Assembly (NCBI GenBank): GCA_024653325.1
Contig: JANLFX010000004.1
Span: forward strand, 6,628-70,627
DNA length: 64,000 nucleotides
Direction: 5' to 3'
DNA from: Anaerolineae bacterium
Lineage (GTDB): Bacteria > Chloroflexota > Anaerolineae > JACIWR01
Shown in pieces: positions 1 to 24,206 of this stretch (the first letter of the stretch is position 1; every line of letters starts with the position of its first letter). The translations under genes and the position numbers were made by a program. Under the pieces are notes generated by a model. It ran no database searches and had not been told where the DNA came from. It saw only the letters and a program-made list of their open reading frames with translations.

Positions 1-8
1 AGGTTAGA

Positions 9-2255
9 TTGGAAGTGCTGGGCCGTTTCCCGGTCTTGCCGATACCCGGAGCTGCGGCTGGCGATGTGCTCGCTATGGCCGTGACCTCGTCCACCATCAC
101 ATTTACCAATCCTTATGACGGGACGGATCAGCAGGCCAGGATTGTGCTTCCCGATGATTACAGCGGTGACCCTGTGCCCCTGGTAATCTATGTTCACGGC
201 CGGAGCTCGGACATGTACGAGGGTGAAAATACTATTGGCGAAGCGACCAGAAACAAGGGCTGGCTGCTGGCCACGCCGCAGTTGCACGGTAGTTGGCCCT
301 ATCCACCAGATCCACCAGGGAAATATGCTTATGCCTCCCTGGAAAGCCAATATGACATCATCGGCGCCATGAATTACATGCTTGACCATTACAATGTGAT
401 TACAGATCGCATTTATCTGGTGGGCTATTCAATGGGCGGCCAGATTGCCACAGTCACGGCAGGCAAGTTTCCCCATGTGTTCGCTGCTGTGTTTGATAAC
501 AAGGGTCCAACGAATATGGCGGAATGGTACTACGAGCAAGCAGAGTATTATGAAAGCTTCAACCATCCGCACGTGCAAGCCATGAGGCAAGAATGTCATG
601 TCAATGAACTCGAGCGAGATCCAACTGAGAATCCTTTTTGCTATCAACGCCGCTCGGGGGTCAATTTCGCCAGCAACTACATCCACATGCCGATCTCGAT
701 TACCCACAGCGTCAGCGACACGCTTGTGCCTATCCACCATTCACGAGATTTCCGCGACGCCGTCAACAGCTATAGCCCAGACCGCCCGGTCACCGTTTAT
801 GAGGATACTATAATAGGCCCTACATGCGGTGAGCCTTACCATTGTTACGAACCCGACCCGATGGATGTGCTGAATTTCCTGGAGCAATTCACCTTGAACA
901 ATAACCCGACCAGTATCAACATCACCACCGACGAATCAAAATCCTATCATTGGCTGAACGTCATTCAAACGGGTGGCGATCACTGGTCGCAGGTACAAGT
1001 CGCCTACTATCCCATCACGGCTACCGTGACGGCCCTGATCTCAGATACCGCGCCATTAACCCTGGCCTTCAACCTTGGTTCAACGGCTCTGACCTATGAG
1101 AGGATCTCCGATAAGCTGAAACAACCGGGCATGGGACTGCCGGCGACGACTTATCTGATCAAAGGGGGAGATAATAATTACCTGCACAACTATGAATCCG
1201 GTTACCTGACCACGACTCTGTCCACTACGGGTGAGTTTGGCCTGACCATTTCGGCGATTACAGTGGACCTTTCGGCTTACCCGGACATGGTATCGGGATG
1301 GCAAACGTCCACCTCAGCAGTCACAGCTATAGTGAGAGATCATCTGGATAATCCTGTTCCAGACGGCACAATCGTAGAGTTTTCTGCGACCGAAGGTACC
1401 TTTCCCAACGGGAGTGCAGTTTACACGGCTACCGTCACGGGAGGCCAAGTCACAACTACCTTAACCCTGCCGCCTGAAAAGGCATCGGCGGAGATCGCCG
1501 CCTGGATAGGAAGCGTTACCAATACCACCACAATAAACGTGATTTACCCGTCCATAGAAATGACGGTCACGCCAGATCGGGCAATGGTCTACAGCGGGCA
1601 GATGGTCACTTACACTTATCAGATCACCAACACCGGTGATGTAACGCTGACCGATGTGACCGTGGAGGACGACAACGGCACGCCAGAAGACAGCGGTGAT
1701 GATGTCATCGCCTGCACCGGTCTGACCTTGGCTCCGGAAGCCATGGCTGGCTGTAGCCGCAATGCGACGTTAACTCATACCGTAACCAATAAAGTTACCG
1801 TTACCGGGCTGGACCCGCTGAGCAACGATATTTCAGATGAAGACACGGCAACTATCAGCATTATCTCGCCGGCCATAGAAATGACGGTCACGCCGGATCA
1901 GGCAATGGTCTACAGTGGGCAGATGGTCACTTACACTTATCAGATCACCAACACTGGTGATGTAACGCTGACCGATGTGACCGTGGAGGACGACAACGGC
2001 ACGCCGGACGATGACGGCGATGATCTCACAGTATGTACCGGGATCACCCTGGAGGCAGGAGCAACAACCAATTGTAGCCGTCTAGCTACGCTGACCGAGA
2101 CTACGGTCATCATAGCCACTGCCACTGGACAAGACCCCTTGGGCAATGCGGTTGTTGCCAGCGACGCGGTGACCATTACAGTTCAACCGCCAGAAGAAAT
2201 TCCTACAAGCATCTACCTTCCTGTTGTTATGAGAAATAGTAGTTACGTACCTTGA
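9..2255 (+). CDS. Probable 5'-partial surface protein: alpha/beta-hydrolase (esterase/depolymerase-like, GYSMGG nucleophile elbow) N-region followed by two tandem DUF11 ('conserved repeat domain') units; C-terminal tail ...IYLPVVMRNSSYVP
   Basis: GxSxG motif 'GYSMGG'. Two ~107-aa repeats (IEMTVTPDxAMVYSGQMVTYTYQITNTGDVTLTDVTVEDDNGTP...) typical of DUF11. No signal peptide at the ORF start, so the gene probably begins upstream of the window. Confidence 0.6.
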   Translation: MEVLGRFPVLPIPGAAAGDVLAMAVTSSTITFTNPYDGTDQQARIVLPDDYSGDPVPLVIYVHGRSSDMYEGENTIGEATRNKGWLLATPQLHGSWPYPPDPPGKYAYASLESQYDIIGAMNYMLDHYNVITDRIYLVGYSMGGQIATVTAGKFPHVFAAVFDNKGPTNMAEWYYEQAEYYESFNHPHVQAMRQECHVNELERDPTENPFCYQRRSGVNFASNYIHMPISITHSVSDTLVPIHHSRDFRDAVNSYSPDRPVTVYEDTIIGPTCGEPYHCYEPDPMDVLNFLEQFTLNNNPTSINITTDESKSYHWLNVIQTGGDHWSQVQVAYYPITATVTALISDTAPLTLAFNLGSTALTYERISDKLKQPGMGLPATTYLIKGGDNNYLHNYESGYLTTTLSTTGEFGLTISAITVDLSAYPDMVSGWQTSTSAVTAIVRDHLDNPVPDGTIVEFSATEGTFPNGSAVYTATVTGGQVTTTLTLPPEKASAEIAAWIGSVTNTTTINVIYPSIEMTVTPDRAMVYSGQMVTYTYQITNTGDVTLTDVTVEDDNGTPEDSGDDVIACTGLTLAPEAMAGCSRNATLTHTVTNKVTVTGLDPLSNDISDEDTATISIISPAIEMTVTPDQAMVYSGQMVTYTYQITNTGDVTLTDVTVEDDNGTPDDDGDDLTVCTGITLEAGATTNCSRLATLTETTVIIATATGQDPLGNAVVASDAVTITVQPPEEIPTSIYLPVVMRNSSYVP
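1548..2180. repeat. Tandem direct DNA repeat, period ~321 bp (two DUF11 coding units). The first ~140 nt of each unit are near-identical (1548-1690 vs 1869-2011).
   Basis: Direct reading: ccgtccatagaaatgacggtcacgccagatcgggcaatggtctacagcgggcagatggtcacttacacttatcagatcaccaac... recurs with 5 substitutions. Confidence 0.85.
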
Positions 2256-2264
2256 TGGAGCGAA

Positions 2265-3461
2265 ATGCTAACCGGGCATAATTTTGTTTATTTTGGACCA
2301 GGGCCGTGGTTGGGTTTGTGGCGCAACCGACACCACCTAATGAGCAGGTTTGCTCATGGTAATCAGGTGCTGTATGTAGAGCCGCCGCCATATCTCCGAC
2401 CCGTTGTACATCAACTATCACAAGGTTGGGAGGGCTGGCAGAGCCTGCGAAATCCATGCCTGAGCCAGGTGCAGGATAACCTGTACGTTTACCACAGCCC
2501 AGCCTACGCCCCAGTTAGTGGACGTCCGCCTTTGAGCACGATAACCCATGTCATACGCCAGGCCTTGCTCTTGCGGGCGATGCAGCGTCTGGGGATGGAA
2601 CAACCCATCATCTGGCTCTCGCAGCCAAAAATGGGAAGCCTGATCGGTCAATTCCATGAGCGGTTGACAATCTATCACGTGGTGGATGAGTACACCGCCT
2701 ACCACGGCGTAACGACGGAAATGGCTTCCTGGATTCGTCTCCAGGAAAAACAACTCATGGCCCGGGTAGATTTGGTGATTGTGGTCTCATCCACACTGTG
2801 GGAAGCCAAACGGCCCTACAACCCACATACCTATTGGGTACCCAACGGTGTGGACCTGGTGGCTTTCAACCGTGCGTTGACCGAGAAAACTCCTCCAGCA
2901 GACCTGAATGCTATCCCGGAACCGCGGCTTGTCTATGCCGGGCTAATTGGTGTGCGACTCGATTTGACTTTGCTGCTCGCTGTCGCCCGGCGACATCCAG
3001 ACTGGTCACTTGTCTTTATAGGACAGGTGGATGACCGAGGATGTGAGGATGAACTGGCCAATTTGCAATCTTTGCCCAATGTTCACTTTTTGGGCCTGAA
3101 GCCAGCCTCCGTCGTGCCCCGTTATTTACTGGCTTGCCAGGTATGTCTGCTGCCCTATCGTCGGAGCGAGGAGTCTCGGCACATAGACCCGATTAAGCTG
3201 TACGAGGGACTGGCTTCTGGGAAACCCATTGTATCTACTCCTATCCCGGCGGTGTTACCTTACGGCGATCTGATCTGGCTGGCTTCTGACGATAGTGAAT
3301 TCGAAGCGGCGGTACAAGAAGCCCTGGCGGAACGGGATGATAGCAGAGCGGCACAACGGCGGTCTTTGGCGGCGGAACACACCTGGGAAAAGAGAGTAGA
3401 GCAGATTTCGACCCTGATCCAGTCCCGCCTTCGTGATAATAAGCGGGTTAAGCAGGGGTGA
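2265..3461 (+). CDS. GT-B fold glycosyltransferase (family 1/4 domain)
   Basis: C-terminal motif ...YEGLASGKPIVSTPIP... characteristic of Glycos_transf_1. N-terminal region resembles the GT4 N-domain. Confidence 0.7.
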   Translation: MLTGHNFVYFGPGPWLGLWRNRHHLMSRFAHGNQVLYVEPPPYLRPVVHQLSQGWEGWQSLRNPCLSQVQDNLYVYHSPAYAPVSGRPPLSTITHVIRQALLLRAMQRLGMEQPIIWLSQPKMGSLIGQFHERLTIYHVVDEYTAYHGVTTEMASWIRLQEKQLMARVDLVIVVSSTLWEAKRPYNPHTYWVPNGVDLVAFNRALTEKTPPADLNAIPEPRLVYAGLIGVRLDLTLLLAVARRHPDWSLVFIGQVDDRGCEDELANLQSLPNVHFLGLKPASVVPRYLLACQVCLLPYRRSEESRHIDPIKLYEGLASGKPIVSTPIPAVLPYGDLIWLASDDSEFEAAVQEALAERDDSRAAQRRSLAAEHTWEKRVEQISTLIQSRLRDNKRVKQG

Positions 3462-3468
3462 GAAACCG

Positions 3469-4704
3469 ATGACCAATCGCAGCTATCGTGTCCTTTACGT
3501 GGAAAATGCAAACAGTGTGGGAGGATCCATTATCAGCGTTTATCGGCTGGTGCAGCAGTTGAACCGCCAGCACTATGAGCCGATCATCCTGTTCCATCGT
3601 CCCAATGGCTACGAGCCTCGCTTTCGCGCCTTGGGCATCGAGGTTATTGTACTGGACGGTAAGGAAACACCCCAGGCTCAAGCCGGTAGTGGTCATTCCC
3701 GCGACATCGCGGCCTGGCTCGGTCACTACAGCTCAACTCTGGCTCACACTTACCGCAGGCTGAAATCCATCTACTTGTTGGGAAGCCAAACCCTACCGGA
3801 GTCACGACGCATCTATCGCATCATCAAGGACCGCAGGATTGACCTTGTACATCTGAACAATCGGCTGAGCAGCAACCGCAGCGGAGCCCTGGCCGCGCGA
3901 TGGGCTCGCACGCCCTGTCTATGCCATGTTCGTGACTTCGACCATCTGACCTGGTTTGATCGTTGGCTAGTAAAAAGGGTAGACCATTTTGCTTTTATGT
4001 CGCGTGCCCTGGAACAGAGTCTGAAGGCTGCCGAACCCTCCCTTCGCGGGTCGGTCGTTTACGATGGTCTGGAGCTGGATAGATTTTTGACTTCACAAGA
4101 CAAGGCCAACTTTCGTCAAGAATTGGGACTGAGCAATGATGATTTTGTGGTGGGGAATGTGGGCCGGTTGGTGCCCTGGAAGGGGCAGGAGGTCTTCCTG
4201 CGCGCGCTGGCCCGCGTCGCGCCGCAGATCCGTAACCTCAAAGCACTGATTGTGGGCGACCCGGACCCGCCGGCAGAGACCGCCTATTTGAAACATTTGC
4301 AATCTCTGGTTCAGGAACTGGGCCTGTCGGATATTGTACGGTTCACGGGGTTTTATTCGGACATTCCCCGCCTTATGGCTTCGCTGGATGTGCTGGTGCA
4401 CAGCTCCTCGTCGCCGGAGCCTTTCGGCATCGTGGTGATCGAGGGCATGGCGGCGGGCAAACCGGTGATTGCTACCAGAGCCGGTGGGGTGCTGGACATC
4501 ATCGAAGATGGTGATAACGGCCTGCTGGTGCCCGTTGGAGACGACCAGAGTATGGCCGAGGCGATTTTGACTCTGGCTCGCTGTCCTGATCTGGCGGCTC
4601 GGCTGGGGACGAATGCACGGCAACGCGTAACAGCTTGTTTCACAGTGACTCAGTACGTCCAGACGGTGCAAACTATCTACCAGAGTTTACTGGAGGAGAG
4701 ATAG
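3469..4704 (+). CDS. Glycosyltransferase family 4
   Basis: EPFGIVVIEGMAAGKPVIATRAGGVLDIIEDGDNGLLV, the classic GT4 EX7E-region motif. Start chosen at MTNRSYRVLYVENANSVGGS. Confidence 0.85.
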   Translation: MTNRSYRVLYVENANSVGGSIISVYRLVQQLNRQHYEPIILFHRPNGYEPRFRALGIEVIVLDGKETPQAQAGSGHSRDIAAWLGHYSSTLAHTYRRLKSIYLLGSQTLPESRRIYRIIKDRRIDLVHLNNRLSSNRSGALAARWARTPCLCHVRDFDHLTWFDRWLVKRVDHFAFMSRALEQSLKAAEPSLRGSVVYDGLELDRFLTSQDKANFRQELGLSNDDFVVGNVGRLVPWKGQEVFLRALARVAPQIRNLKALIVGDPDPPAETAYLKHLQSLVQELGLSDIVRFTGFYSDIPRLMASLDVLVHSSSSPEPFGIVVIEGMAAGKPVIATRAGGVLDIIEDGDNGLLVPVGDDQSMAEAILTLARCPDLAARLGTNARQRVTACFTVTQYVQTVQTIYQSLLEER

Positions 4705-4840
4705 CGTACGATTTTGCCTGAAGGGTCTGGACAATGTCACTGTGTGCAGAGGGACAGGGCTGGGAGGTTCAGGAGGTATAGAACAGGGCGATGGAAGCCA
4801 ACATAGCCTCGGATCATAAAGACCTCAGGAGGGAAGAATC

Positions 4841-5872
4841 ATGAGTGTGGAAGAGTTTGTACAGTATATGCGTATTCTACTGAAGAGGTGGTGGCTGTTT
4901 CTGATCCTGTGCGGTACCACTTTAGGGGCTATCCTGTTTAGCTTCTATACAGCCCCTCCCCAGTACAGAGCCACTGTTCACTTTCTCGTAAACGCCCCCC
5001 CATCTGGGGATGTAACTCTTTACCCGGGCTTCGATCAGCCTACCCAGAGTCAGCAAATCGCGGCCACCCAGTCTCGTTTCATGGAGATATTGCAAAGTTC
5101 GACGGTGACCTGGCAAACTGTGAGAACCATCCAGGCCTCGATGGATGGCGATGAGCTCAAGCGGCGGACTGTGGTGGATAAACCAACGGATTCGGAATTC
5201 ATTCGCGTATCCGTGTTAGCCGATGAACCCCAGGAGGCAGCCGATTTAGCCAATGCACTGGTAGATACGGCCAAACAGTATTACGGTCAGATTTTGGCTA
5301 ACCCCTCGGCTTTGGCCCGCGAATTCATCTCCATGCAGGTAGAGGATGCTTTTCAGGAACTCCAGGCCGCCAAGCAGGCATTGGCGGATTTTAAGAAAAA
5401 GCATCAGATTGGAGATTTGCCGGCCGAAATCCAGGCCCAAAGAACCATTCTCTGGAATCTGATCCTGGAACACGACCAGGCCGTAGCCAACAAGCAAACC
5501 GATCAAGCGGCGGCTTACGATATACTTATCTCCCAACGCCAGGAAGAGCTCCAACGGCTGACCGCGCTAAGCGATGAGTATGAAGACTTGAACGACGCTA
5601 TCAAGAGAGCCGAAACCTATTACAAGTTCCTGCTGGATAAGGAGACCGAAGCCAAGCTGAAGGAGAATGAGATCCTCAACGCTGCTTTCATCCAGGTAAT
5701 CGAGCCAGCCCGTCCACCGCGGGAGCCTGTGTCACCTATCAATCTCAAAGTCCTTGCCCTCGGCAGCCTATCGAGCCTGATTGCCAGTATAGTGATCGCT
5801 TTTGCGCTTGAATACAAAGAGTCTCAGCAAACGCAAAAAACAAAGAAGCCAGTAGCGAGTTTTGCCTCATGA
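4841..5872 (+). CDS. Polysaccharide co-polymerase / chain-length determinant (Wzz-like, no kinase domain)
   Basis: N-terminal TM (WWLFLILCGTTLGAILF) plus a Wzz-type motif (PPQYRATVHFLV). Long coiled-coil middle and a C-terminal TM. GGAGGG ribosome-binding site upstream. Confidence 0.7.
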   Translation: MSVEEFVQYMRILLKRWWLFLILCGTTLGAILFSFYTAPPQYRATVHFLVNAPPSGDVTLYPGFDQPTQSQQIAATQSRFMEILQSSTVTWQTVRTIQASMDGDELKRRTVVDKPTDSEFIRVSVLADEPQEAADLANALVDTAKQYYGQILANPSALAREFISMQVEDAFQELQAAKQALADFKKKHQIGDLPAEIQAQRTILWNLILEHDQAVANKQTDQAAAYDILISQRQEELQRLTALSDEYEDLNDAIKRAETYYKFLLDKETEAKLKENEILNAAFIQVIEPARPPREPVSPINLKVLALGSLSSLIASIVIAFALEYKESQQTQKTKKPVASFAS

Positions 5873-5927
5873 CTCGCACATTCAGTGTAGTCAATCAATT
5901 AAAGACTCACGAACCGTAAGGACGTAT

Positions 5928-17503: not shown

Positions 17504-17527
17504 GGATAATCTCAAAGGATTGCGCCA

Positions 17528-18565: not shown

Positions 18566-18590
18566 AACCCAGGAAAAGGACTGAACGTTC

Positions 18591-19886
18591 ATGAATTACA
18601 TTGCCCATCTTATCCACTCCAAGGGCCTCGGCCAATTAGTTCATCGGGGGTTAGTCATTTCCCGGCATTATGGCGCAACGCCTGAAAAAATGATGCGGGC
18701 GTTCGACCAACTTATCGGTACATTGGAGCAATACGGATGTCGGGCGACATTTCCTGTCACCGCCGTGGCTCTGGCTAGGCATCCGACCCCTTTCCACCGG
18801 TTGCAGGAACGCGGGATGGAACTTGCCATTCATGGATGGACCCATGTGAACCTGGAACGCTACTCTTTAGAGCAGCAGCGTGAGCATCTGGCCAGGGCCA
18901 TGGACATCTTTGGCCGGTACCACATCCCGGTAAAAGGTTTTCGCTCCCCCTATTTGCGACATAACAGTACCATTCGTGAGACAGTTGAAGCGATGGGCCT
19001 TCGATACGTCAGCGATCAGCCTATACTCTGGGAAATAACTGCTGAGTCGCTCCGGTCCCTGGGGAGAAACCAGGCCTATCAGAGAGCTGTTGCCTTTTAT
19101 GCCCCCTGGTCATCGGTTGGCCATTTATCCCTGCCAGTCGTGCAAGGGCAAATTGTTGAAATCCCCGTGTCCTTGCCGGATGATGAGATGTTGGCCGAAC
19201 GGCTGGAAGCCGATAGCGACCAAATTGCGCAGATTTGGACGGAGATTCTACACCAGACCTACGTGAGGGAAGAACTGTTTACCATACAATTTCACCCAGA
19301 AAGAGCAACGATCTGCACCCCAGCTTTGAACCGTGTGCTGTCCGAGGCCCGATCCTACAATCCGCCTGTCTGGATTGCACGCCTGGATGAAATTGCCGGA
19401 TGGTGGCAACAACGGCAAGCACTCCGCATTGATGTGACGCAAGAAGACCCTGATCAATATAACATAGTCATCTATGGACCGACCCAGGCCAATGCTCTGG
19501 TCCGTTCTGCTCAAGTCATTGGTGACTCGACGGCCTGGGGAGACGGGTACCAATTGGTGAAATCGCGCTGCTTCTCAGTACGGTGCAATACTCGGCCCTT
19601 CATTGGCATCTCGAGACGGACCAGTCGCCCTCTGATCAATTTCTTGGAACAGCAAGGCTACCTGGTCGAAATCCACGACGAGTGCACCAGCTATCCGGTC
19701 CATCTTGACTGGCCGAATTTCACACAAGAGGATGAGGGACCCCTCATCCGGCAGATTGAGGCTACCCGATCTCCATTAATCCGCATCAGCCGCTGGCCGG
19801 GCGGCGCGCGCAGTGTCCTGACCATCACTGGCGATGTTGATGCGCTGACCCTGTGGGATTATGGCTTGCGCCTTTTCGGTAAGTAA
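18591..19886 (+). CDS. Polysaccharide deacetylase family (CE4-like) protein with divergent motif 1
   Basis: CE4 motif 2 (IHGWTH) and motif 3 (GFRSPYL) are present. Motif 1 (TFDDG) is replaced by TFPVT. Confidence 0.55.
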   Translation: MNYIAHLIHSKGLGQLVHRGLVISRHYGATPEKMMRAFDQLIGTLEQYGCRATFPVTAVALARHPTPFHRLQERGMELAIHGWTHVNLERYSLEQQREHLARAMDIFGRYHIPVKGFRSPYLRHNSTIRETVEAMGLRYVSDQPILWEITAESLRSLGRNQAYQRAVAFYAPWSSVGHLSLPVVQGQIVEIPVSLPDDEMLAERLEADSDQIAQIWTEILHQTYVREELFTIQFHPERATICTPALNRVLSEARSYNPPVWIARLDEIAGWWQQRQALRIDVTQEDPDQYNIVIYGPTQANALVRSAQVIGDSTAWGDGYQLVKSRCFSVRCNTRPFIGISRRTSRPLINFLEQQGYLVEIHDECTSYPVHLDWPNFTQEDEGPLIRQIEATRSPLIRISRWPGGARSVLTITGDVDALTLWDYGLRLFGK

Positions 19887-19899
19887 TGGACAGAGGGCG

Positions 19900-21084
19900 A
19901 TGAGGAAACGTGCCTGCATAGTCCGTCAAGATTATTTTCCTGAGGACCTGTTGGTCTACCGGGAGGCCGAAGCTTTGCAGGAAGCCGGCTTTGAGGTAGA
20001 TGTCATCTGCTTGTCTTCCTCTCAGCAGCCTCGAGAGGAGATTATCAATGACATTCATATCCACCGCTTACCGCTACAACGCAAGAAACGCGGCATCATC
20101 CGCTACCTGTTTGAATATTTCGCGTTCTTCCTTCTCGTGGCATTCAAGCTGACCGTTTTGCATCTCCAACAGCCCTACATACTCATTCAAGTCAACACCA
20201 TGCCTGATTTCTTAGTGTTTGCCACGTTGATTCCCCGTTTGCTGGGTGCCAAAGTGACGCTCCAGATGTACGAACCGATGCCAGAATTGTGGGCGACCAA
20301 ATTTCATTTTCCACCGGTCATCAGGCTTCTCGAGGTCATTCAGCAGGCGAGTCTACGCTACGCTCATGCCGCCTTTACTGTAAACCAGCAGCTCAAAGAT
20401 ACCCTGGTTGCGCGTGGAGCAGATCCAGCTAAAATCACCGTCGTACTGAATGTTCCTCAGGGACAATTCTTCGAAAGGTATGAATCCGAACCTTCCCCCT
20501 CCTCCGACGGCTACTTTACGTTGATCTGCCATGGCGCCATAGAAGAGCGGTACGGTCACGATACCATGCTGGAAGCCATTCACGCTCTCAAGTCGGTTAT
20601 TCCCAACATTCGCCTGCGCATCCTGGGCAAGGGGAGCTACTTGCAGGAGATTCTCGCTCGGATTGAGGCTCTGGACTTGAGCGACCAGGTGCAGTATCTG
20701 GGCTTTGTTCCCCTACCTCAGTTGGTGGAGGAGCTACGCAGGGCAGATGTAGGCATAGTGGCGCAAAAGTCTTCACCCTATTCTAATCTGGTCCACACAG
20801 GTAAGATGTACGATTACCTGCATTTCGGCAAACCAGTCATCGCTTCCCGCTTGAGAGCAGTGAATGCTTATTTTGACGAAGCAAGTTTGTGCTACTTTGC
20901 CCCAAGCGAGCCTCAAGACCTGGCGCGCGCTATCCAGTATCTCTATGAACACCCGGAGGCGCGAGAGACCTTTGCCAGGAATGCGCGCCAGCTCTACGAA
21001 CGCTATCGTTGGGAAAATCAGAAGCCAACCTATATTGCGGTTTGCCAAGCGCTGGTTGATCAGAACATCCGCAAGATTTCTTAA
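19900..21084 (+). CDS. Glycosyltransferase family 4 (WbuB/WcaI-like)
   Basis: N-terminus MRKRACIVRQDYFPED…REAEALQEAGFEVDVICL and C-terminal …GKMYDYLHFGKPVIAS… are typical of GT4. Confidence 0.75.
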   Translation: MRKRACIVRQDYFPEDLLVYREAEALQEAGFEVDVICLSSSQQPREEIINDIHIHRLPLQRKKRGIIRYLFEYFAFFLLVAFKLTVLHLQQPYILIQVNTMPDFLVFATLIPRLLGAKVTLQMYEPMPELWATKFHFPPVIRLLEVIQQASLRYAHAAFTVNQQLKDTLVARGADPAKITVVLNVPQGQFFERYESEPSPSSDGYFTLICHGAIEERYGHDTMLEAIHALKSVIPNIRLRILGKGSYLQEILARIEALDLSDQVQYLGFVPLPQLVEELRRADVGIVAQKSSPYSNLVHTGKMYDYLHFGKPVIASRLRAVNAYFDEASLCYFAPSEPQDLARAIQYLYEHPEARETFARNARQLYERYRWENQKPTYIAVCQALVDQNIRKIS

Positions 21085-21202
21085 GCCTGGACTCCAGCGA
21101 AACTCTCTTCCTGCTCCCAACGGGTCTGTGACCCGCCAGACACCAGTCGCAGACCGGCCTTGTGACGAAAGACGCCATTTTCTTCATGAAAGGACTTACC
21201 TG

Positions 21203-22519
21203 GTGAAGATTAGCATTTTTGGATTGGGCTACGTGGGATCTGTATCGGCAGGTTGCCTAGCCGCATTGGGCCATGAGGTGATCGGCGTTGACGTGAACCC
21301 GATGAAGGTTGCAATGATCAACGCCAGCCAGAGCCCGGTTATTGAAACAGAGCTGGACGCCCTCATCGCCGAGGGAGTCAGAATTGGCCGGCTCCGCGCC
21401 AGCACTGACGCCAATGAAGCCATTGCCGCTTCCGAAGTCTCGCTGATCTGTGTGGGCACCCCCAGCAACGACAATGGAGATCTGAACCTGACCTATGTGG
21501 AGCGAGTATGCCGCGAGATCGGCCATGCCTTAGCTGAGAAAAACGGCTATCACGTGGTTGTTGTGCGCAGCACTCTGTTGCCCGGTTGCACCGAGGAAAA
21601 GATCATTCCCCTTCTTGAGAGATCTTCAGGGCGTCAGGCAGGGCGAGACTTTGGCGTTTCTTTCAACCCGGAGTTTCTGCGCGAAGGAACGGCCGTGCAT
21701 GACTTCTACTATCCCCCCTTTACCCTGATCGGACAGTATGACAGCCAGGGAGCCGAAATAGCTGCTGTCTTATACACAGGCATTGACGCCCCGTTGTTGA
21801 TTGTCCCGATAAAAGTCGCGGAGATGGTCAAGTACGCCAATAACGCCTTCCACGCCCTGAAGGTCGCTTTTGCCAATGAGATTGGCAACATCTGCAAGCG
21901 CCAGGGGATAGACGGTCACCAAGTCATGGATATTTTTTGTCTCGACAAGAAATTGAACCTGTCCTCACACTATCTTAAGCCAGGTTTTGCCTTTGGCGGC
22001 TCCTGCCTGCCCAAGGACTTGCGGGCCCTGCTCTACCACGCCCATCGTCTGGACCTGAACGTGCCTGTCCTGGAAGCTATTTTGCCGAGTAACGCTCTGC
22101 AGGTCAAGCGAGGCTTTGAGTTAATCAAGCAGACGGGAAAGAAGAAAATTGGAGTGCTGGGCTTCAGCTTCAAAGCCGGTACTGATGACTTGCGGGAAAG
22201 CCCGGTGGTGGAACTAATCGAAATCCTCATTGGCAAGGGTTATCAAGTCAGGGTCTACGACAAGAATGTCTTGCTGGCCCGCTTGCATGGATCAAACCGG
22301 ACTTACATCGAGCGGGAAATCCCCCACATCGCTACATTGATGCGTTCCTCGATGGAAGAGGTATTGGCTGAAAGTGAGGTCATCGTCATCGGCAACAAAG
22401 CTCCCGAGTTTCGCCAGGCGCTCCAGCAACTGCACCAGGATCAGATGATCATTGACCTGGTGCGAATATCACAAGACATTGATTCATCGCCTGCCCGGTA
22501 TGAAGGCATTTGCTGGTAA
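21203..22519 (+). CDS. algD: Nucleotide-sugar 6-dehydrogenase, GDP-mannose 6-dehydrogenase (AlgD-type)
   Basis: VKISIFGLGYVGSVSAGCLAALGHEVIGVDV… Rossmann N-terminus and catalytic GFAFGGSCLPKD. End-to-end resemblance to P. aeruginosa AlgD as recalled from memory, including the C-terminal …EGICW. GTG start with AAAGGA RBS. The longer ORF from 20864 is rejected as an N-extension. Confidence 0.8.
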   Translation: MKISIFGLGYVGSVSAGCLAALGHEVIGVDVNPMKVAMINASQSPVIETELDALIAEGVRIGRLRASTDANEAIAASEVSLICVGTPSNDNGDLNLTYVERVCREIGHALAEKNGYHVVVVRSTLLPGCTEEKIIPLLERSSGRQAGRDFGVSFNPEFLREGTAVHDFYYPPFTLIGQYDSQGAEIAAVLYTGIDAPLLIVPIKVAEMVKYANNAFHALKVAFANEIGNICKRQGIDGHQVMDIFCLDKKLNLSSHYLKPGFAFGGSCLPKDLRALLYHAHRLDLNVPVLEAILPSNALQVKRGFELIKQTGKKKIGVLGFSFKAGTDDLRESPVVELIEILIGKGYQVRVYDKNVLLARLHGSNRTYIEREIPHIATLMRSSMEEVLAESEVIVIGNKAPEFRQALQQLHQDQMIIDLVRISQDIDSSPARYEGICW

Positions 22520-22548
22520 GAATAATTGGTAGCCAAGAGATTCAAACT

Positions 22549-23562
22549 ATGAAAGTTGTTCAGCGGTTAGACGAGCCCTCGTGGCGAGCTTTTGTAGATA
22601 ACCACCCACAGGGCAACATCTTCCACACCCCGGAAATGTTTCAGGTCTTCGCACGAGCCAAAGGGCATCGGCCAACGCTGTGGGCGACCACCGATGACGA
22701 CGGTCAGGTGTTGGCTTTGTTGCTGCCGGTGCAAATCACATTGAAAGGCGGCCCCCTGCGCCGTCTGACCACCCGTGCCGTAGTTTATGGCAGTGTATTA
22801 TGTGCTCCCGGCCCAGAAGGACAGGAAGCCCTGGCCCTGCTGCTGCGTACTTACACCCAGCAAGTAAACGGAGCGCCGCTCTTCACCGAACTGCGTAACC
22901 TATCGGATCTGACAGCAGTGCAACCCATCTTACAGACCCACGGTTTCGCCTACGAGGATCACCTGAACTATCTCATCAACTTGACTCTGCCGCCAGAGAC
23001 TTTGTTTCAGAACATCGGGGCCCGAACGCGCAAACACATCCGCCGCGCCCTAAGGCAAGGGGAGGTGGTGATTGAAGAGGTCACCAAACGAGAACAAATA
23101 GCCACCTGCTATGATTTCCTCTGCCGCACCTATCGGGCGGCCCGCGTTCCCCTCGCTGACCGTTCTCTGTTTGAAACCGCTTTTGACGTGCTCCATCCTA
23201 AAGGCATGGTACGGTTCACCGTGGCCCGTGTGGGTCAAATACCCGTGGTCACTTCGGTAGAGCTGTTGTATAAGGACACGGTCTATGGCTGGTATGGCGG
23301 CGTGGACCGTGCTTATAGCTCCTACCGACCCAACGAGCTCCTGATGTGGCATATTCTGCAGTGGAGTGCCGAAAATAATTATAAGGTCTACGATTTCGGC
23401 GGTGCGGGCAAGCCAAATGAGAAATACGGGGTGCGCGATTTCAAGGCCAAGTTCGGTGGTACCCTGGTCAATTATGGACGCAATACCTATGTCCATAACC
23501 GTTATCTGCTGCACCTGAGCGCTTTGGGATATCGAGTTTACCGTGGTTTGAAAAGACTATGA
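22549..23562 (+). CDS. FemAB-family / acyl-CoA N-acyltransferase-fold (aminoacyl-transferase-like) protein
   Basis: Size and N-terminus (MKVVQRLDEPSWRAFVDNHPQGNIFHTPEMFQVF) resemble FemAB-like proteins found in EPS loci. This is a family-level call only. Confidence 0.5.
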   Translation: MKVVQRLDEPSWRAFVDNHPQGNIFHTPEMFQVFARAKGHRPTLWATTDDDGQVLALLLPVQITLKGGPLRRLTTRAVVYGSVLCAPGPEGQEALALLLRTYTQQVNGAPLFTELRNLSDLTAVQPILQTHGFAYEDHLNYLINLTLPPETLFQNIGARTRKHIRRALRQGEVVIEEVTKREQIATCYDFLCRTYRAARVPLADRSLFETAFDVLHPKGMVRFTVARVGQIPVVTSVELLYKDTVYGWYGGVDRAYSSYRPNELLMWHILQWSAENNYKVYDFGGAGKPNEKYGVRDFKAKFGGTLVNYGRNTYVHNRYLLHLSALGYRVYRGLKRL

Positions 23563-24206
23563 TTCACGCCTGGGAAGTGTTCAAACGCCTCTCCTATGAC
23601 TGGAAGGAAAAGATACAACGAGAGGGCTGGCGGGGAGCCAGTCGCTGGCTGATTGAAGTCCTTGCCCTGCTGCCTTACCGCCACATAGAATACATCGTTT
23701 TCGTCCGTTCCCTGCGCGAGCCGTTGCCCGTTGTCACGCCACGCCTGCCCGTGACTCTGCGACCGGCAACGGAGGCCGACCTGACGCGTTTTCAGGGCCT
23801 GGTGCCACCCTCGGAAATCAGGTACTTCAGCCAGCGGCTGGCTCACGCTCGCCATTGTTTTCTGGCCCTCGACGGCGAGCAACTGGCTGCCTATTGCTGG
23901 GCAACTACTCAGGTGGAGTCCCATGTGGACAATCTCGAGCTGAAATTGCAGCCTGGCGATGTCTATGTAGACGATGCCTTCACTGTACCAGCTTATCGCC
24001 GGCAAGGCATCCAGACCGCCGTACATTTGTATCGCCTGCAATACATGAAAGACCGGGGCTGCCAGCGGGCCATCCTGATCGTGAGTGAAGACAACGTTGC
24101 CTCCCAGCAATTGGTCCGCAAGCTGGGCTATCAAGAGATAGACCGCTTGTCCTTCCGGCGAATTCTATGGAAGCGAATCTACCACTACCACTCAGGTAAA
24201 CTTTAG
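23559..24206 (+). CDS. GNAT family N-acetyltransferase
   Basis: …RRQGIQTAVHLYRLQYMKDRGCQRAILIVSEDNVASQQLVRKLGY… matches GNAT motif A/B. Start overlaps the upstream stop (ATGA). Confidence 0.8.
   Translation: MIHAWEVFKRLSYDWKEKIQREGWRGASRWLIEVLALLPYRHIEYIVFVRSLREPLPVVTPRLPVTLRPATEADLTRFQGLVPPSEIRYFSQRLAHARHCFLALDGEQLAAYCWATTQVESHVDNLELKLQPGDVYVDDAFTVPAYRRQGIQTAVHLYRLQYMKDRGCQRAILIVSEDNVASQQLVRKLGYQEIDRLSFRRILWKRIYHYHSGKL

What the first reader, a model, noticed from the sequence alone, without database searches (positions are those of the whole stretch)
1..24206. 24-kb co-directional glycan cluster combining an AlgD-type GDP-mannose dehydrogenase, a cytoplasmic heparinase II/III (PL15/PL17-fold) protein, AsnB-like and FemAB-like transferases, a CE4-like deacetylase and an O-antigen-ligase-like protein. 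It resembles exosortase-associated EPS loci but shows no exosortase or flippase in the window.
The gene set is about 5 GT4/GT1, a Wzz-like PCP, a Wzy_C/O-antigen-ligase-like gene, an AsnB-like amidotransferase, a FemAB-like gene, a GNAT, a polysaccharide deacetylase with degenerate motif 1, and a nucleotide-sugar dehydrogenase. This mirrors the accessory genes of exosortase/PEP-CTERM EPS loci, where exosortase-associated amidotransferase, FemAB-related protein, PEP-CTERM-locus deacetylase and a probable O-glycosylation ligase co-occur. The AlgD-like dehydrogenase (recalled near-colinear match to P. aeruginosa AlgD, ending …EGICW) implies GDP-mannuronic acid as a precursor. The 780-aa heparinase II/III-like protein has the two-domain architecture of PL15/PL17 oligo-uronate lyases but no signal peptide. 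Taken together this points to a mannuronate-containing, possibly amidated/aminoacylated and partially deacetylated polymer, perhaps a protein O-glycan given the ligase-like gene and the adjacent DUF11 surface protein. No Wzx flippase, ABC exporter, exosortase or priming phosphoglycosyltransferase is in the window; they may lie upstream of position 1.
Basis: partly seen in the sequence, partly recalled or inferred. Interest (0 to 1): 0.55.

Follow-up and report, generated by a model that had tools for sequence, protein, structure and literature searches.

The report
Anaerolineae mannuronate surface-glycan gene cluster
The first 24 kb of the window are most of a roughly 31-kb surface-polysaccharide gene cluster from an uncultured Chloroflexi (Anaerolineae) bacterium; it really does have an alginate-type GDP-mannuronate-forming enzyme and a signal-less heparinase-like enzyme, but it goes with an ABC exporter found just upstream, not with an exosortase system.

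Summary
The gene inventory is real. Seventeen co-directional ORFs fill window 1-24206 and end at a tRNA-Arg.

**Supported**
- The dehydrogenase is AlgD-type: 54% identical end to end to P. aeruginosa GDP-mannose 6-dehydrogenase, 535 bits against 268 for the best UDP-glucose dehydrogenase.
- The 780-aa heparinase-like protein has no export signal. Its closest solved relatives are PL12 heparinase III, and its catalytic Asn/Tyr/His are invariant.

**Not supported**
- No exosortase was found in 70 kb.

**New here**
- A near-identical contig of the same organism shows the locus continuing 6.6 kb upstream: wzm, wzt (with Wzt_C), GT4, CE4, GT2, acetyltransferase.
- One syntenic relative adds a Bac_transf priming transferase.
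- The AsnB-like protein has lost its glutaminase cysteine in all eight Anaerolineae-type orthologues examined.
- Across 79 species-level loci the heparinase-like gene sits next to an AsnB-like gene (40) and GT4 genes. AlgD-type is the only recurrent sugar dehydrogenase.

Verdict: an uncharacterised variant of an ordinary kind of locus, containing a conserved module of unknown function. Moderate to low interest.

The parts
1..2255 (+). 3' part of a gene for a secreted alpha/beta-hydrolase (CE1/PHB-depolymerase-like esterase, GYSMGG nucleophile motif) with two DUF7507/DUF11 repeats. The gene starts 375-474 nt upstream of the window and encodes 876-909 aa.
   Evidence: Pfam DUF7507 76.5 bits, Peptidase_S9 and BD-FAE. 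NCBIfam PHA-depolymerase-like hit below cut-off. Full gene on L003:6175/6274-8904, with a hydrophobic N-terminus if the GTG at 6175 is the start. Found at the same position in relatives L004, L008, L019, L025 and L084-L087.
2265..3461 (+). GT-B glycosyltransferase (TuaH/WcaI-like).
   Evidence: Glyco_trans_1_4 and Glycos_transf_1. TuaH 95.8 bits, below cut-off. Orthologues of 394-406 aa in relatives support the long start.
3433..4704 (+). GT4 glycosyltransferase.
   Evidence: Glycos_transf_1 149 bits plus Glyco_transf_4. TIGR03088 139.6 bits against a cut-off of 409.
4841..5872 (+). Wzz-like polysaccharide co-polymerase with two transmembrane segments and no kinase domain.
   Evidence: Wzz 26.7 bits, GNVR 23.1 bits. 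Transmembrane segments at residues 17-35 and 304-322. TIGR03007 46 bits against a cut-off of 279.
5862..7403 (+). Polytopic Wzy_C-family protein, either an O-antigen-ligase-like enzyme or a polymerase. The public gene call starts at 5931.
   Evidence: PF04932 57.8 bits at residues 286-415. About 10-12 hydrophobic segments. TIGR03097 42.1 bits against a cut-off of 188.1. No PDB sequence relative.
7400..8605 (+). GT4 glycosyltransferase.
   Evidence: Glycos_transf_1 131.7 bits. The exact protein is on record in GCA_029907125.1 and in JGI sample 3300038743.
8554..10443 (+). AsnB-like ATP-pyrophosphatase (adenylating) enzyme. The N-terminal glutaminase nucleophile Cys is replaced by Ala. Its end overlaps the next gene by 14 nt.
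   Evidence: Asn_synthase and GATase_7. TIGR01536 195 bits against 267, and TIGR03108 184 against 817. N-terminus is MAGIFG or MPG(L/I)(F/V) in 8 Anaerolineae-type orthologues but MCGI in distant paralogues; N74 is changed to D; the SGGLDS PP-loop is kept.
10430..12772 (+). Signal-less heparinase II/III-superfamily protein, closest to PL12 heparinase III: an (alpha/alpha) toroid followed by a beta-sandwich.
   Evidence: Hepar_II_III_N 155.7 bits and Hepar_II_III_C 176.6 bits. PDB 4MMH, 4FNV and 5JMD at 116-119 bits, with HepIII Asn240/Tyr294/His424 aligned to N255/Y309/H456. These residues are invariant in 27 homologues. AF2 pLDDT 88.3. Foldseek hits: PL12 at E about 1e-32, then PL39, PL17, PL15 and human DS-epimerase 6HZN. 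No hydrophobic N-terminus.
12778..14070 (+). GT4 glycosyltransferase (EpsE/WcaL-like). A GT4 gene is the commonest immediate neighbour of the heparinase-like gene.
   Evidence: Glycos_transf_1 154 bits. EpsE 228.5 bits against a cut-off of 400. Neighbour statistics.
14043..15122 (+). Membrane-anchored extracytoplasmic protein of an unannotated family.
   Evidence: No Pfam or NCBIfam hit. Transmembrane segment near the N-terminus. More than 230 homologues, none annotated. AF2 pLDDT 87.6 but no PDB fold match, best E 0.3. Syntenic in L004, L007, L008 and L012.
15107..17503 (+). Membrane-anchored BNR/Asp-box beta-propeller protein (GH74-like, F510_1955-like).
   Evidence: Sortilin-Vps10 102.8 bits and BNR. 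NF045728 131.7 bits against a cut-off of 175. Weak PDB hits to GH74 xyloglucanases, at most 47 bits. Transmembrane segment at residues 34-52.
17528..18565 (+). GT-B-like protein. Only the N-terminal GT4-type domain is detectable.
   Evidence: Glyco_trans_4_4 26.6 bits, below cut-off. Orthologues in 10 loci that also carry the heparinase-like gene.
18591..19886 (+). CE4-like (polysaccharide deacetylase) domain protein lacking the Asp-Asp of motif 1, with a C-terminal extension of about 250 aa.
   Evidence: Polysacc_deac_1 62.9 bits, matched from profile position 21 onward. The sequence shows ISRHYG, HGWTH, FRSPY and FHPE. TIGR03006 34.4 bits against a cut-off of 276.
19861..21084 (+). GT4 glycosyltransferase.
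   Evidence: Glycos_transf_1 74 bits and Glyco_trans_4_4 59 bits.
21203..22519 (+). AlgD-type GDP-mannose 6-dehydrogenase (438 aa, GTG start).
   Evidence: 1MFZ/1MUU/1MV8: 534.9 bits, E 1e-159, full length, 236/438 identical, catalytic Cys268 in FGGSCLPKD, C-terminus EGICW. TIGR03026 409 bits, above its cut-off of 190. Start codon context.
22510..23562 (+). FemAB-like (Acetyltransf_6) acyl/aminoacyl-transferase.
   Evidence: Acetyltransf_6 83.8 bits and FemAB 56.5 bits. TIGR03019 70.2 bits against a cut-off of 260. Weak PDB hits to FemX and FmhB.
23559..24206 (+). GNAT N-acetyltransferase, the last gene of the cluster.
   Evidence: Acetyltransf_1 46.7 bits.
24386..24462 (+). tRNA-Arg(TCT), marking the 3' boundary. 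recJ follows at 24616.
   Evidence: ARAGORN and Rfam, 66.4 bits. RecJ TIGR00644 497 bits.

Best explanation
Window 1-24206 is the downstream four-fifths of a locus of at least 30.8 kb and 24 genes, all on one strand. It would make a decorated, mannuronate-containing cell-surface heteroglycan in an uncultured Anaerolineae bacterium (Chloroflexota).

**Shown**
- The gene inventory.
- The AlgD-type GDP-mannose 6-dehydrogenase.
- An intact PL12-like catalytic triad in a protein without an export signal.
- Loss of the glutaminase nucleophile in the AsnB-like enzyme.
- A Wzm/Wzt(Wzt_C) ABC exporter, a canonical NodB-like CE4, a GT4, a GT2 and a hexapeptide O-acetyltransferase directly upstream in the same genome.
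- Gene-for-gene synteny in other Anaerolineae and related Chloroflexota, one of which also has a Bac_transf priming transferase and Rml-like genes at the 5' end.

**Inferred mechanism**
1. A lipid-linked glycan is built at the cytoplasmic face by about 8-9 glycosyltransferases, using GDP-ManA among the donors.
2. It is modified there by the translationally coupled pair of AsnB-like adenylating enzyme and PL12-like enzyme. That pair would act on uronate C6/C5 chemistry: C5-epimerisation or eliminative trimming, with carboxyl activation or amidation from ammonia or another amine rather than glutamine.
3. It is N-deacetylated and re-acylated by the CE4, FemAB-like and GNAT proteins, and O-acetylated.
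4. It is exported by Wzm/Wzt.
5. It is then handed by the Wzy_C-family protein, helped by the Wzz-like protein, to an acceptor outside the membrane.
6. It is remodelled outside by the anchored esterase, the BNR propeller and the unknown-domain protein.

It is not an exosortase/PEP-CTERM-type system and not an alginate (Alg8/Alg44) system.
For: - **Domain content and layout:**
- **AlgD:** 535 bits full length against 268 for the nearest UDP-glucose dehydrogenase; 54% identity; Cys268 conserved.
- **PL12-like protein:**
- **Same-genome contig:** 99.99% identical over 18.6 kb. It shows wzm, wzt+Wzt_C, GT4, CE4, GT2 and Hexapep upstream of window position 1.
- **Relatives:** L084/L085, L086 and L087 keep the wzm-wzt...esterase-GT-GT4-Wzz-Wzy_C order. 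L084/L085 and L086 continue it into GT4-AsnB-heparinase, while L087 carries its heparinase-like gene in the upstream module. L086 adds Bac_transf plus RmlA/B/C-like genes.
- **No Wzx:** none was seen in any Anaerolineae-type locus examined.
- **Downstream synteny:** the window's gene order is kept in L004, L007, L008, L012 and L018 at 50-90% identity.
- **Across 79 species-level loci:**
  - AsnB-like is an immediate neighbour of the heparinase-like gene in 40.
  - A GT4 gene is the upstream neighbour in 32 and the downstream neighbour in 27.
  - An AlgD-type dehydrogenase (at least 45% identity) lies on the same strand within 10 kb in at least 19.
  - Other sugar dehydrogenases appear in only 2.
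- **AsnB-like enzyme:** Cys1 and Asn74 lost, PP-loop kept, in 8 orthologues.
- **Exosortase models:** all below cut-off.
Against: - No chemistry or expression data exist.
- A Wzz-like co-polymerase next to a Wzy_C protein is the hallmark of Wzx/Wzy polymerisation, not of ABC export. The upstream wzm/wzt module could therefore serve a second glycan.
- No priming transferase is visible in the 70.6 kb available for this genome.
- The closest relative, L004 (82%), has no AlgD between GT4 and FemAB within the 22 kb held. Mannuronate may therefore be a strain-variable component.
- In Acidobacteriota the same heparinase/AsnB module sits in loci with Wzx flippases, so the module is not tied to ABC export.
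- Lyase and epimerase cannot be told apart from sequence or fold.
- Absence of a signal peptide rests on a hydropathy scan and the N-terminal sequence. No dedicated predictor was run.
Confidence: 0.6

Rival explanations
1. One reading: an exosortase/PEP-CTERM-associated EPS locus whose exosortase, flippase and priming enzyme lie outside the window.
For: The best-named NCBIfam hits for several genes are XrtA-associated models: TIGR03097, TIGR03108, TIGR03019, TIGR03006, TIGR03007 and TIGR03088. The gene set (AsnB-like, FemAB-like, CE4, Wzy_C) is superficially the same.
Against: - Every one of these hits is 3-8 fold below the curated cut-off, and TIGR03108 matches only the N-terminal half.
- No Exosortase_EpsH domain was found in any ORF scanned in the window, and none is on record among the called genes of the upstream 6.6 kb or of syntenic relatives.
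- The exporter found is Wzm/Wzt.
- ORF1 ends ...IYLPVVMRNSSYVP, which is not a PEP-CTERM tail.
- The AsnB-like enzyme lacks the Cys that TIGR03108-type amidotransferases use.
- The host is Chloroflexota, which by general knowledge lacks an outer membrane. This was not tested here.
Confidence: 0.04
2. There are two juxtaposed systems. The window genes form a Wzx/Wzy-dependent heteropolysaccharide locus: Wzz plus Wzy_C acting as polymerase, with Wzx and the priming transferase elsewhere. The upstream wzm-wzt-GT4-CE4-GT2-acetyltransferase block makes a separate ABC-exported glycan.
For: - Wzz-like and Wzy_C genes are adjacent.
- In Acidobacteriota the heparinase/AsnB/AlgD module co-occurs with Polysacc_synt_3 flippases and Wzy_C proteins.
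- The secreted esterase gene sits between the two blocks.
Against: - No Wzx was seen in about 32 kb of any of four Anaerolineae-type genomes, while wzm/wzt is always present in the same order and strand.
- The two blocks stay fused at 60-82% protein identity.
- In L087 a heparinase-like gene sits inside the wzm/wzt block.
Confidence: 0.22
3. It is a protein O-glycosylation system of the S-layer-glycan type. The ABC-exported lipid-linked glycan is transferred by the Wzy_C protein, acting as an O-oligosaccharyltransferase, onto surface proteins such as the co-encoded esterase/DUF11 protein.
For: - Wzm/Wzt plus a Wzy_C-family protein without Wzx is the layout of S-layer glycan clusters of Geobacillus/Paenibacillus (general knowledge; reviewed in PMC2943079, listed but not read in detail).
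- The secreted repeat protein is conserved inside the locus in at least eight relatives.
Against: - No test can tell a ligase from a polymerase or an O-oligosaccharyltransferase. The Wzy_C protein has no detectable PDB relative.
- ORF1 has a plausible enzymatic role of its own, with a Ser-nucleophile esterase motif.
- No S-layer protein was identified.
Confidence: 0.2
4. The heparinase-like protein is catabolic. It would be a cytoplasmic oligo-uronate lyase that recycles imported or mis-made uronate oligomers, like the PL15/PL17 exolyases, and has no role in building the glycan.
For: - The fold and catalytic residues are those of lyases.
- PL15 Atu3025 and PL17 Alg17c are structural neighbours.
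Against: - Its start overlaps the end of the AsnB-like gene by 14 nt.
- It is flanked by glycosyltransferases in 79 species-level loci.
- No uronate transporter or downstream catabolic genes are in any locus inspected.
- A heparinase II/III-like gene is required for capsule production in V. vulnificus (PMC6037467).
Confidence: 0.08

Closest known systems
ABC-transporter-dependent O-antigen and S-layer glycan pathways (Wzm/Wzt with a Wzt_C glycan-binding domain, then a WaaL/WsaB-type Wzy_C ligase)
   Same: - Wzm (ABC2_membrane) and Wzt with Wzt_C lie directly upstream in the same genome.
- A Wzy_C-family polytopic protein is present.
- Many cytoplasmic GT4/GT2 enzymes are present.
- A Bac_transf priming enzyme is present in a syntenic relative.
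- No Wzx is present.
   Different: - A Wzz-like co-polymerase is present.
- There is no recognisable chain-terminating methyltransferase or kinase in this genome.
- The host is a Chloroflexota bacterium with no lipid A-core acceptor (general knowledge).
- The acceptor is unknown.
Alginate biosynthesis (algD-alg8-alg44-algKEGXLIJFA) of Pseudomonas and Azotobacter
   Same: - The dehydrogenase is AlgD-type, 54% identical, with the same catalytic Cys.
- A lyase-fold enzyme and an O-acetyltransferase accompany it. In alginate operons a C5-epimerase (AlgG) and a lyase (AlgL) act on the mannuronate polymer (general knowledge).
   Different: - There is no Alg8/Alg44 synthase and no AlgK/E/X/G/I/J/F.
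- The lyase-fold protein is PL12-like and lacks an export signal, whereas AlgL is a periplasmic PL5 enzyme.
- Many GT4 enzymes imply a heteropolymer.
Signal-less heparinase II/III-like proteins in surface-polysaccharide loci: V. vulnificus VV0358 and P. aeruginosa PA14 HepP
   Same: - Same Pfam superfamily.
- No typical export signal was reported for HepP (PMC5732420).
- VV0358 is needed for capsule and serum resistance (PMC6037467).
- Both are in or near glycan loci.
   Different: - Direct sequence relationship to the window protein was not tested.
- Neither has a defined biochemical role in biosynthesis.
- HepP was reported to clear heparin in a plate assay.
PL12 heparinase III (Pedobacter HepC 4MMH; Bacteroides BT4657 4FNV/5JMD)
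   Same: - Best sequence matches (about 119 bits) and best fold matches (E about 1e-32, target-normalised TM up to 0.79).
- Asn/Tyr/His catalytic residues conserved.
   Different: - About 20% identity.
- 149 bits against a cut-off of 700 for the HepC equivalog model.
- No signal peptide.
- Biosynthetic rather than catabolic gene context.
- An extra C-terminal segment of about 100 aa.
Uronamide-forming AsnB-like amidotransferases of O-antigen loci (WbpS/WbqG type) and TIGR03108
   Same: - Asn_synthase PP-loop domain (SGGLDS) next to uronate-forming and uronate-transferring enzymes.
- Canonical MCGI versions neighbour the heparinase-like gene in other phyla.
   Different: - In the Anaerolineae clade Cys1 is changed to Ala or Pro and Asn74 to Asp, so glutamine cannot be hydrolysed.
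- Scores are below all curated cut-offs.
Human dermatan-sulfate epimerase 1 (6HZN), a lyase-fold uronate C5-epimerase
   Same: - The AF2 model aligns with a query-normalised TM of 0.60 (E 2e-16), the same range as true lyases of PL15/17/39.
- It shows that this fold can epimerise instead of cleave.
   Different: - 12% identity.
- No evidence here for epimerase activity.

Membership tests
Exosortase A (XrtA)/PEP-CTERM-associated EPS locus | Accessory proteins reach the curated cut-offs of TIGR03097, TIGR03108, TIGR03019, TIGR03006, TIGR03007 and TIGR03087/03088/04063. | tested here: not met
   Scores against cut-offs: 42/188, 184/817, 70/260, 34/276, 46/279, 35/317, 140/409 and 84/442 bits.
Exosortase A (XrtA)/PEP-CTERM-associated EPS locus | An exosortase (EpsH/Xrt) gene in or near the locus. 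| tested here: not met
   No Exosortase_EpsH hit in any ORF scanned in the 64-kb window, and none on record among the called genes of the 6.6 kb upstream or of syntenic relatives. The rest of the genome was not available.
Exosortase A (XrtA)/PEP-CTERM-associated EPS locus | PEP-CTERM sorting signal on co-encoded secreted proteins. | tested here: not met
   ORF1 ends IYLPVVMRNSSYVP, with no PEP motif, transmembrane segment and Arg-rich tail. Checked by eye only.
AlgD-type GDP-mannose 6-dehydrogenase | Closer to AlgD than to UDP-glucose or UDP-ManNAc dehydrogenases over the full length. | tested here: met
   1MFZ 534.9 bits, residues 1-438 against 1-436. Next best is UDP-glucose dehydrogenase 3VTF at 268 bits, and UDP-ManNAcA dehydrogenase 4R16 scores 160 bits.
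AlgD-type GDP-mannose 6-dehydrogenase | Catalytic Cys268 in the GGSCLPKD motif. | tested here: met
   The motif is identical and lies at position 268.
AlgD-type GDP-mannose 6-dehydrogenase | [quoted passage not shown] | not testable with these tools
   Needs an enzyme assay.
Alginate synthase system (Alg8/Alg44/AlgK/E/G/X/L/I/J/F) | Alg8-type GT2 synthase with its Alg44 partner, plus a periplasmic scaffold and porin. | tested here: not met
   No such hits among the 24 locus proteins. The only GT2 is 349 aa and EpsE/TuaG-like.
PL12 heparinase III | Sequence and fold similarity with conserved Asn/Tyr/His catalytic residues. | tested here: met
PL12 heparinase III | Reaches the HepC equivalog cut-off (NF045573/NF045572). 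| tested here: not met
   149 bits against 700, and 141 against 600.
PL12 heparinase III | Secreted or periplasmic enzyme with a signal peptide that degrades heparan sulfate. | tested here: not met
   There is no hydrophobic N-terminus in the window protein or in the 27-sequence consensus. The gene context is biosynthetic. Activity was not tested.
Glutamine-dependent AsnB-type amidotransferase (including WbpS-like and TIGR03108) | N-terminal Cys nucleophile of the class II glutaminase domain. | tested here: not met
   The N-terminus is MAGIFG, and Ala or Pro occupies this position in 8 orthologues. Asn74 is changed to Asp.
Glutamine-dependent AsnB-type amidotransferase (including WbpS-like and TIGR03108) | PP-loop SGGxDS of the synthetase domain. 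| tested here: met
   LSGGLDS at residues 261-267.
ABC-transporter-dependent glycan pathway | Wzm permease and Wzt ATPase, here with a Wzt_C domain, encoded in the locus. | tested here: met
   L003:107-991 and 1001-2293 on the same-genome contig, 4.4-6.5 kb upstream of window position 1. Conserved in relatives.
ABC-transporter-dependent glycan pathway | Priming polyprenol-phosphate transferase. | tested here: inconclusive
   None in the 70.6 kb of this genome. Bac_transf is present at the 5' end of the syntenic locus L086.
Wzx/Wzy-dependent pathway | Wzx (MOP/Polysacc_synt) flippase in the locus. | tested here: not met
   Absent from the window, from the upstream 6.6 kb and from the Anaerolineae-type relatives. 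Present in Acidobacteriota loci that carry the heparinase module.
CE4 metal-dependent de-N-acetylase | Motif 1 Asp-Asp (TFDD-type; catalytic base and metal ligand) together with the His-His of motif 2. | tested here: not met
   The 18591 protein has ISRHYG at motif 1. HGWTH and RSPY are present. The upstream CE4 (L003:3586-4365) looks NodB-like, 135 bits over nearly the whole model, though below the 240-bit cut-off.

The most novel reading that the evidence does not exclude
The signal-less PL12-like protein, its adjacent AsnB-like adenylating enzyme and a GT4 form a cross-phylum biosynthetic module, seen in Chloroflexota, Acidobacteriota, Planctomycetota and Gemmatimonadota. The module would work on mannuronate supplied by an AlgD-type dehydrogenase at the cytoplasmic face. 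Two versions are possible:

- **(a) Epimerase.** A new class of lyase-fold C5-epimerase makes L-guluronate (or its amide) residues on lipid-linked intermediates, a bacterial counterpart of animal dermatan-sulfate epimerase.
- **(b) Chain-terminating lyase.** The enzyme leaves a 4,5-unsaturated non-reducing cap that cannot be elongated and could be the signal read by Wzt_C.

In Anaerolineae the AsnB partner has lost glutamine hydrolysis. It may only activate the C6 carboxylate, or use ammonia or another amine.
Probability: 0.25. Interest if true: 0.7.

Novelty: new variant of a known kind. Interest (0 to 1): 0.35.

Why it matters
Surface-glycan loci are commonplace, and this one is not a new kind of system.

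Three points are still useful.

1. **Envelope glycan of an uncultured group.** It gives a concrete, conserved gene set for an envelope glycan of Anaerolineae. These are abundant, mostly uncultured filamentous bacteria whose surface polymers are chemically unknown. It also predicts a uronic acid, mannuronate, that is otherwise associated mainly with alginate.

2. **Role of signal-less heparinase II/III-like proteins.** Their job in capsule and O-antigen loci is unresolved, although one is required for capsule production in V. vulnificus. The recurrent heparinase-like/AsnB-like/GT4 triad with AlgD-type dehydrogenases gives a specific, testable hypothesis: uronate C5/C6 chemistry on the cytoplasmic side.

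3. **A pitfall in automated annotation.** XrtA-associated model names appear as best hits for generic AsnB, FemAB, CE4 and Wzy_C proteins far below threshold. They should not be read as system membership.

Tried and rejected
- **Exosortase reading.** Rejected after the NCBIfam cut-off comparison and after finding no exosortase domain.
- **UDP-glucose dehydrogenase reading.** NCBIfam's best named hits (AglM, TuaD) suggested it. The hits are below cut-off, NCBIfam listed no AlgD-specific hit, and the PDB comparison is decisive for AlgD.
- **Exact-protein look-ups.** The ORF-finder versions of the 398-aa GT and the 780-aa protein were not on record. Look-ups with the 401-aa GT4 and with the start used by the public gene call (2532) succeeded.
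- **Sequence further upstream of wzm in this genome.** Not possible, because the contig starts there. Relatives were used instead.
- **Promoter, terminator and repeat scans.** Counts were at chance level. The only repeats are the DUF7507 domain duplication and the BNR motifs.
- **Rfam.** Only the tRNA was found.
- **PDB sequence search for the Wzy_C protein.** Nothing was found, so ligase and polymerase could not be separated.
- **Fold search for the unknown membrane-anchored protein.** No match, despite a confident model.
- **Literature searches.** No characterised function turned up for biosynthetic heparinase II/III-like proteins or for Chloroflexi AlgD homologues beyond the two papers cited. 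The GLCE-type bacterial C5-epimerases (PMC3068255) are a different family.
- **Catabolic role for the lyase-like gene.** Considered and judged unlikely (see rival explanations).

Full report

Yes. Between positions 9 and 24206 every long ORF lies on the + strand. Neighbouring genes overlap or are fewer than 30 nt apart, except for gaps of 136 nt (4704/4841) and 118 nt (21084/21203).

- five complete GT4/GT1 glycosyltransferases (2265, 3433, 7400, 12778, 19861) and a sixth GT-B-like protein (17528);
- a Wzz-like co-polymerase (4841) with two transmembrane segments;
- a polytopic Wzy_C protein (5862);
- an AsnB-like protein (8554);
- a Hepar_II_III_N plus Hepar_II_III_C protein of 780 aa (10430);
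- a CE4-like protein (18591);
- a nucleotide-sugar dehydrogenase whose real start is the GTG at 21203;
- a FemAB-like protein (22510) and a GNAT (23559).

The CE4-like protein does have a degenerate motif 1: ISRHYG in place of the usual Asp-Asp (TFDD-type) motif, with HGWTH and RSPY retained.

The cluster ends at a tRNA-Arg(TCT) at 24386-24462, followed by recJ. Its G+C is 0.52-0.56 over most of its length, against 0.58-0.65 downstream.

One is a 798-aa BNR/Asp-box propeller with weak GH74 and F510_1955 similarity (15107-17503). The other belongs to an unannotated family (14043-15122).

"ORF1" is a secreted alpha/beta-hydrolase (CE1/PHB-depolymerase-like, GYSMGG motif) with two DUF7507/DUF11 repeats. 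It is truncated by the window edge.

**2. Where does it come from and what lies upstream?**

The 401-aa GT4 is on record on a 48-kb contig of a MAG annotated as Anaerolineae bacterium (GCA_029907125.1) and on a JGI metagenome contig. Both are 99.99% identical to the window over 18.6 kb.

A second look-up reached the start of that contig. Upstream of window position 1, on the same strand, lie:
- wzm (ABC2_membrane);
- wzt (ABC_tran plus Wzt_C);
- a GT4;
- a NodB-like CE4 (135 bits over nearly the whole model, below its 240-bit cut-off);
- a GT2;
- a hexapeptide O-acetyltransferase (WbbJ/WcaF-like);
- the 5' end of ORF1.

The locus is therefore at least 30.8 kb and 24 genes. The "missing exporter" exists, and it is an ABC transporter.

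The rest of the window (24.6-59 kb) is unrelated: recJ, uvrA, a LacI/ABC/GH3 operon, IS remnants and regulators. No exosortase, Wzx or priming transferase is there. A different polysaccharide locus seems to begin at 59.9 kb, with a CpsC-like PCP and a BY-kinase.

**3. Testing the interpretation**

(a) *AlgD.* The 438-aa protein aligns end to end with P. aeruginosa GDP-mannose 6-dehydrogenase: 1MFZ, 534.9 bits, 236/438 identical, Cys268 in an identical GGSCLPKD motif, C-terminus EGICW. The best UDP-glucose dehydrogenase reaches 268 bits and UDP-ManNAcA dehydrogenases 160 bits or less.

(b) *Exosortase analogy.* The second refutation criterion is met. All of the models below score far under their curated cut-offs, and TIGR03108 covers only the glutaminase-like half.

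| Model | Score (bits) | Cut-off (bits) |
|---|---|---|
| TIGR03097 | 42 | 188 |
| TIGR03108 | 184 | 817 |
| TIGR03019 | 70 | 260 |
| TIGR03006 | 34 | 276 |
| TIGR03007 | 46 | 279 |
| TIGR03087 | 35 | 317 |
| TIGR03088 | 140 | 409 |
| TIGR04063 | 84 | 442 |

These are superfamily-level hits whose names happen to mention XrtA. ORF1 has no PEP-CTERM tail.

(c) *Heparinase-like protein.*
- Its closest solved relatives by sequence are PL12 heparinase III enzymes (4MMH, 4FNV, 5JMD; 116-119 bits).
- HepIII Asn240/Tyr294/His424 align with N255/Y309/H456. These are invariant in 27 homologues of 43-81% identity.
- A confident AF2 model (pLDDT 88.3) matches PL12 best (E about 1e-32, target-normalised TM up to 0.79). 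PL39, PL17, PL15 and PL40 lyases follow, as does human dermatan-sulfate epimerase 1 (query-normalised TM 0.60).
- "PL15/PL17 fold" is therefore right at fold level but not the nearest family. The fold alone cannot separate lyase from epimerase.
- Neither the protein nor the family consensus has a hydrophobic N-terminus.

(d) *AsnB-like protein.*
- Its N-terminus is MAGIFG, so the class II glutaminase nucleophile Cys is absent.
- In eight orthologues from Anaerolineae-type loci (39-90% identity) the position is Ala or Pro, and Asn74 of the oxyanion hole is Asp.
- The distant AsnB-like proteins next to heparinase-like genes in Acidobacteriota keep MCGI and NGEIYN.
- The PP-loop SGGLDS is retained.
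- Glutamine-dependent amidation is therefore excluded for this clade. Adenylation of a carboxylate remains plausible, with ammonia or another nucleophile. This last step is inference.

**4. Comparative context**

A pattern scan of one genome per species returned 80 loci encoding relatives of the heparinase-like protein. They come from Chloroflexota, Acidobacteriota (mostly Pyrinomonadaceae), Planctomycetota, Gemmatimonadota and others.

Clustering the ORFs of these loci gave the following:
- GT4 genes occur in 67 of 81 sources (the 80 loci plus the window locus).
- AsnB-like genes occur in 53, and are the immediate neighbour of the heparinase-like gene in 40 of 79.
- A GT4 gene is the upstream neighbour in 32 and the downstream neighbour in 27.
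- An AlgD-type dehydrogenase (at least 45% identical to the window protein) lies on the same strand within 10 kb in at least 19 loci, and in 12 of the 43 with full flanks.
- Other nucleotide-sugar dehydrogenases appear in only two loci.

In Acidobacteriota the neighbours include Polysacc_synt_3 flippases and Wzy_C proteins. The module is therefore not tied to one export route.

Within Anaerolineae-type genomes the whole window order is conserved at 50-90% identity: esterase, GT, GT4, Wzz, Wzy_C, GT4, AsnB-like, heparinase-like, GT4, unknown, BNR, GT-like, CE4, GT4, +/-AlgD, FemAB, GNAT (L004, L007, L008, L012, L018).

Look-ups with esterase homologues show the upstream block (DRL_cat oxidoreductase, wzm, wzt, CE4, GT2, Hexapep; the GT4 is kept only in the closest relative) preserved in three further genomes. 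In one of these (L086) it is preceded by Bac_transf and RmlA/B/C-like genes. No Wzx was seen in any Anaerolineae-type locus.

Relatives carry extra decorations: an APH-like kinase, an FkbM methyltransferase, a sulfotransferase, a sulfatase and PMT_2-like GT-C proteins. AlgD is absent from the 22 kb held for the closest relative, L004.

**5. Most likely function**

Shown: the inventory and its conservation. Everything below is inferred.

A lipid-linked heteroglycan containing mannuronate is assembled in the cytoplasm. It is modified there by the coupled AsnB-like and PL12-like enzymes and by de-N-acetylation, acylation and O-acetylation. It is exported by Wzm/Wzt. The Wzy_C protein then transfers it, or possibly polymerises it, with the Wzz-like protein. 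The anchored esterase, the BNR propeller and the unknown-domain protein process it outside the cell.

The Wzz-like gene is the main misfit for a pure ABC pathway. This keeps alive the rival that two systems are juxtaposed.

A protein O-glycan variant (S-layer-glycan-like layout) is compatible with the data but untested.

A catabolic role for the lyase-like gene is unlikely given its context. V. vulnificus also needs a heparinase II/III-like gene to make capsule (PMC6037467). P. aeruginosa HepP is a related, signal-less and poorly understood case (PMC5732420).

**6. Novelty and score**

The kind of system, a surface-glycan biosynthesis locus, is ordinary. The combination is an uncharacterised variant:
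- an AlgD-type dehydrogenase outside an alginate operon;
- Wzm/Wzt plus Wzz/Wzy_C without Wzx;
- a Cys-less AsnB-like enzyme;
- a cytoplasmic PL12-like enzyme;
- a Chloroflexota host.

The heparinase-like/AsnB-like/GT4(/AlgD) module recurs across phyla without a known function. That is worth a biochemical test, but it is not surprising enough for a high score.

Interest is 0.35. The most novel reading still open is a lyase-fold C5-epimerase or a chain-terminating lyase, at about 0.25 probability.

Noticed in passing
window 59900-62715: A second polysaccharide locus appears to start here. It has a CpsC-like chain-length determinant (59900-60598) and a BY-kinase (60616-61281; TIGR01007 164 bits, above its cut-off of 108). 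A B12-binding radical-SAM enzyme follows (61321-62715).
   Followed up: no
window 8554-10443 and orthologues in L004, L008, L012, L018, L025, L084, L086: This is a clade of AsnB-like proteins. The glutaminase nucleophile Cys1 is Ala or Pro and Asn74 is Asp, while the PP-loop is intact. Neighbouring-phylum versions keep MCGI.
   Followed up: yes
window 14043-15122: Membrane-anchored extracytoplasmic protein of a family with no Pfam or NCBIfam model. It has more than 230 homologues, including hits attributed to archaeal and Nitrospirae MAGs, and is sometimes fused to CARDB, fn3 or Big domains. The AF2 model is confident (pLDDT 87.6), but no PDB fold match was found (best E 0.3, MltA).
   Followed up: partly
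L003:8860-8904 (window 2211-2255) and window about 14240-14270: A short LP(L/V)VMR motif occurs at the extreme C-terminus of the esterase/DUF7507 protein (IYLPVVMRNSSYVP). It also occurs shortly after the membrane anchor of the unknown protein (FLPLVMRSE). It may be a lineage-specific sorting or processing motif.
   Followed up: no
window 24386-24604: tRNA-Arg(TCT) lies immediately after the cluster. A 30-nt imperfect inverted repeat (24539-24568 / 24575-24604) sits before recJ. The cluster has lower G+C than the flank, which is compatible with, but no proof of, horizontal acquisition.
   Followed up: no
window 44685-45356 (-) and 51280-51843 (-): Mobile-element remnants: an rve integrase-core fragment and an IS200-like Y1 transposase.
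   Followed up: no
window 34626-44688: A LacI-family regulator, a family-5 solute-binding protein, two permeases, two oligo_HPY ATPases and a GH3 glycosidase with a PA14 insert. This is a likely oligosaccharide uptake and hydrolysis operon, unrelated to the cluster.
   Followed up: no
L087:2421-9078; L019:5500-6903; L084:15469-16359: Syntenic relatives carry other decorations. L087 has a sulfotransferase between wzm and wzt and a second heparinase-like gene in the ABC block. L019 has a sulfatase. L084, L087 and L018 have an APH-like kinase. L008 and L012 have an FkbM methyltransferase.
   Followed up: partly
L084:1848-3572: A 574-aa protein with about 12 hydrophobic segments and no Pfam hit lies directly upstream of wzm in the closest relative. 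The window genome's contig breaks exactly where its homologue would be.
   Followed up: partly
window 1530-2146: A 296-nt direct repeat (75% identical; a 160-nt core is 92.5% identical). It is the duplicated DUF7507 domain of ORF1, not a mobile or regulatory repeat.
   Followed up: yes
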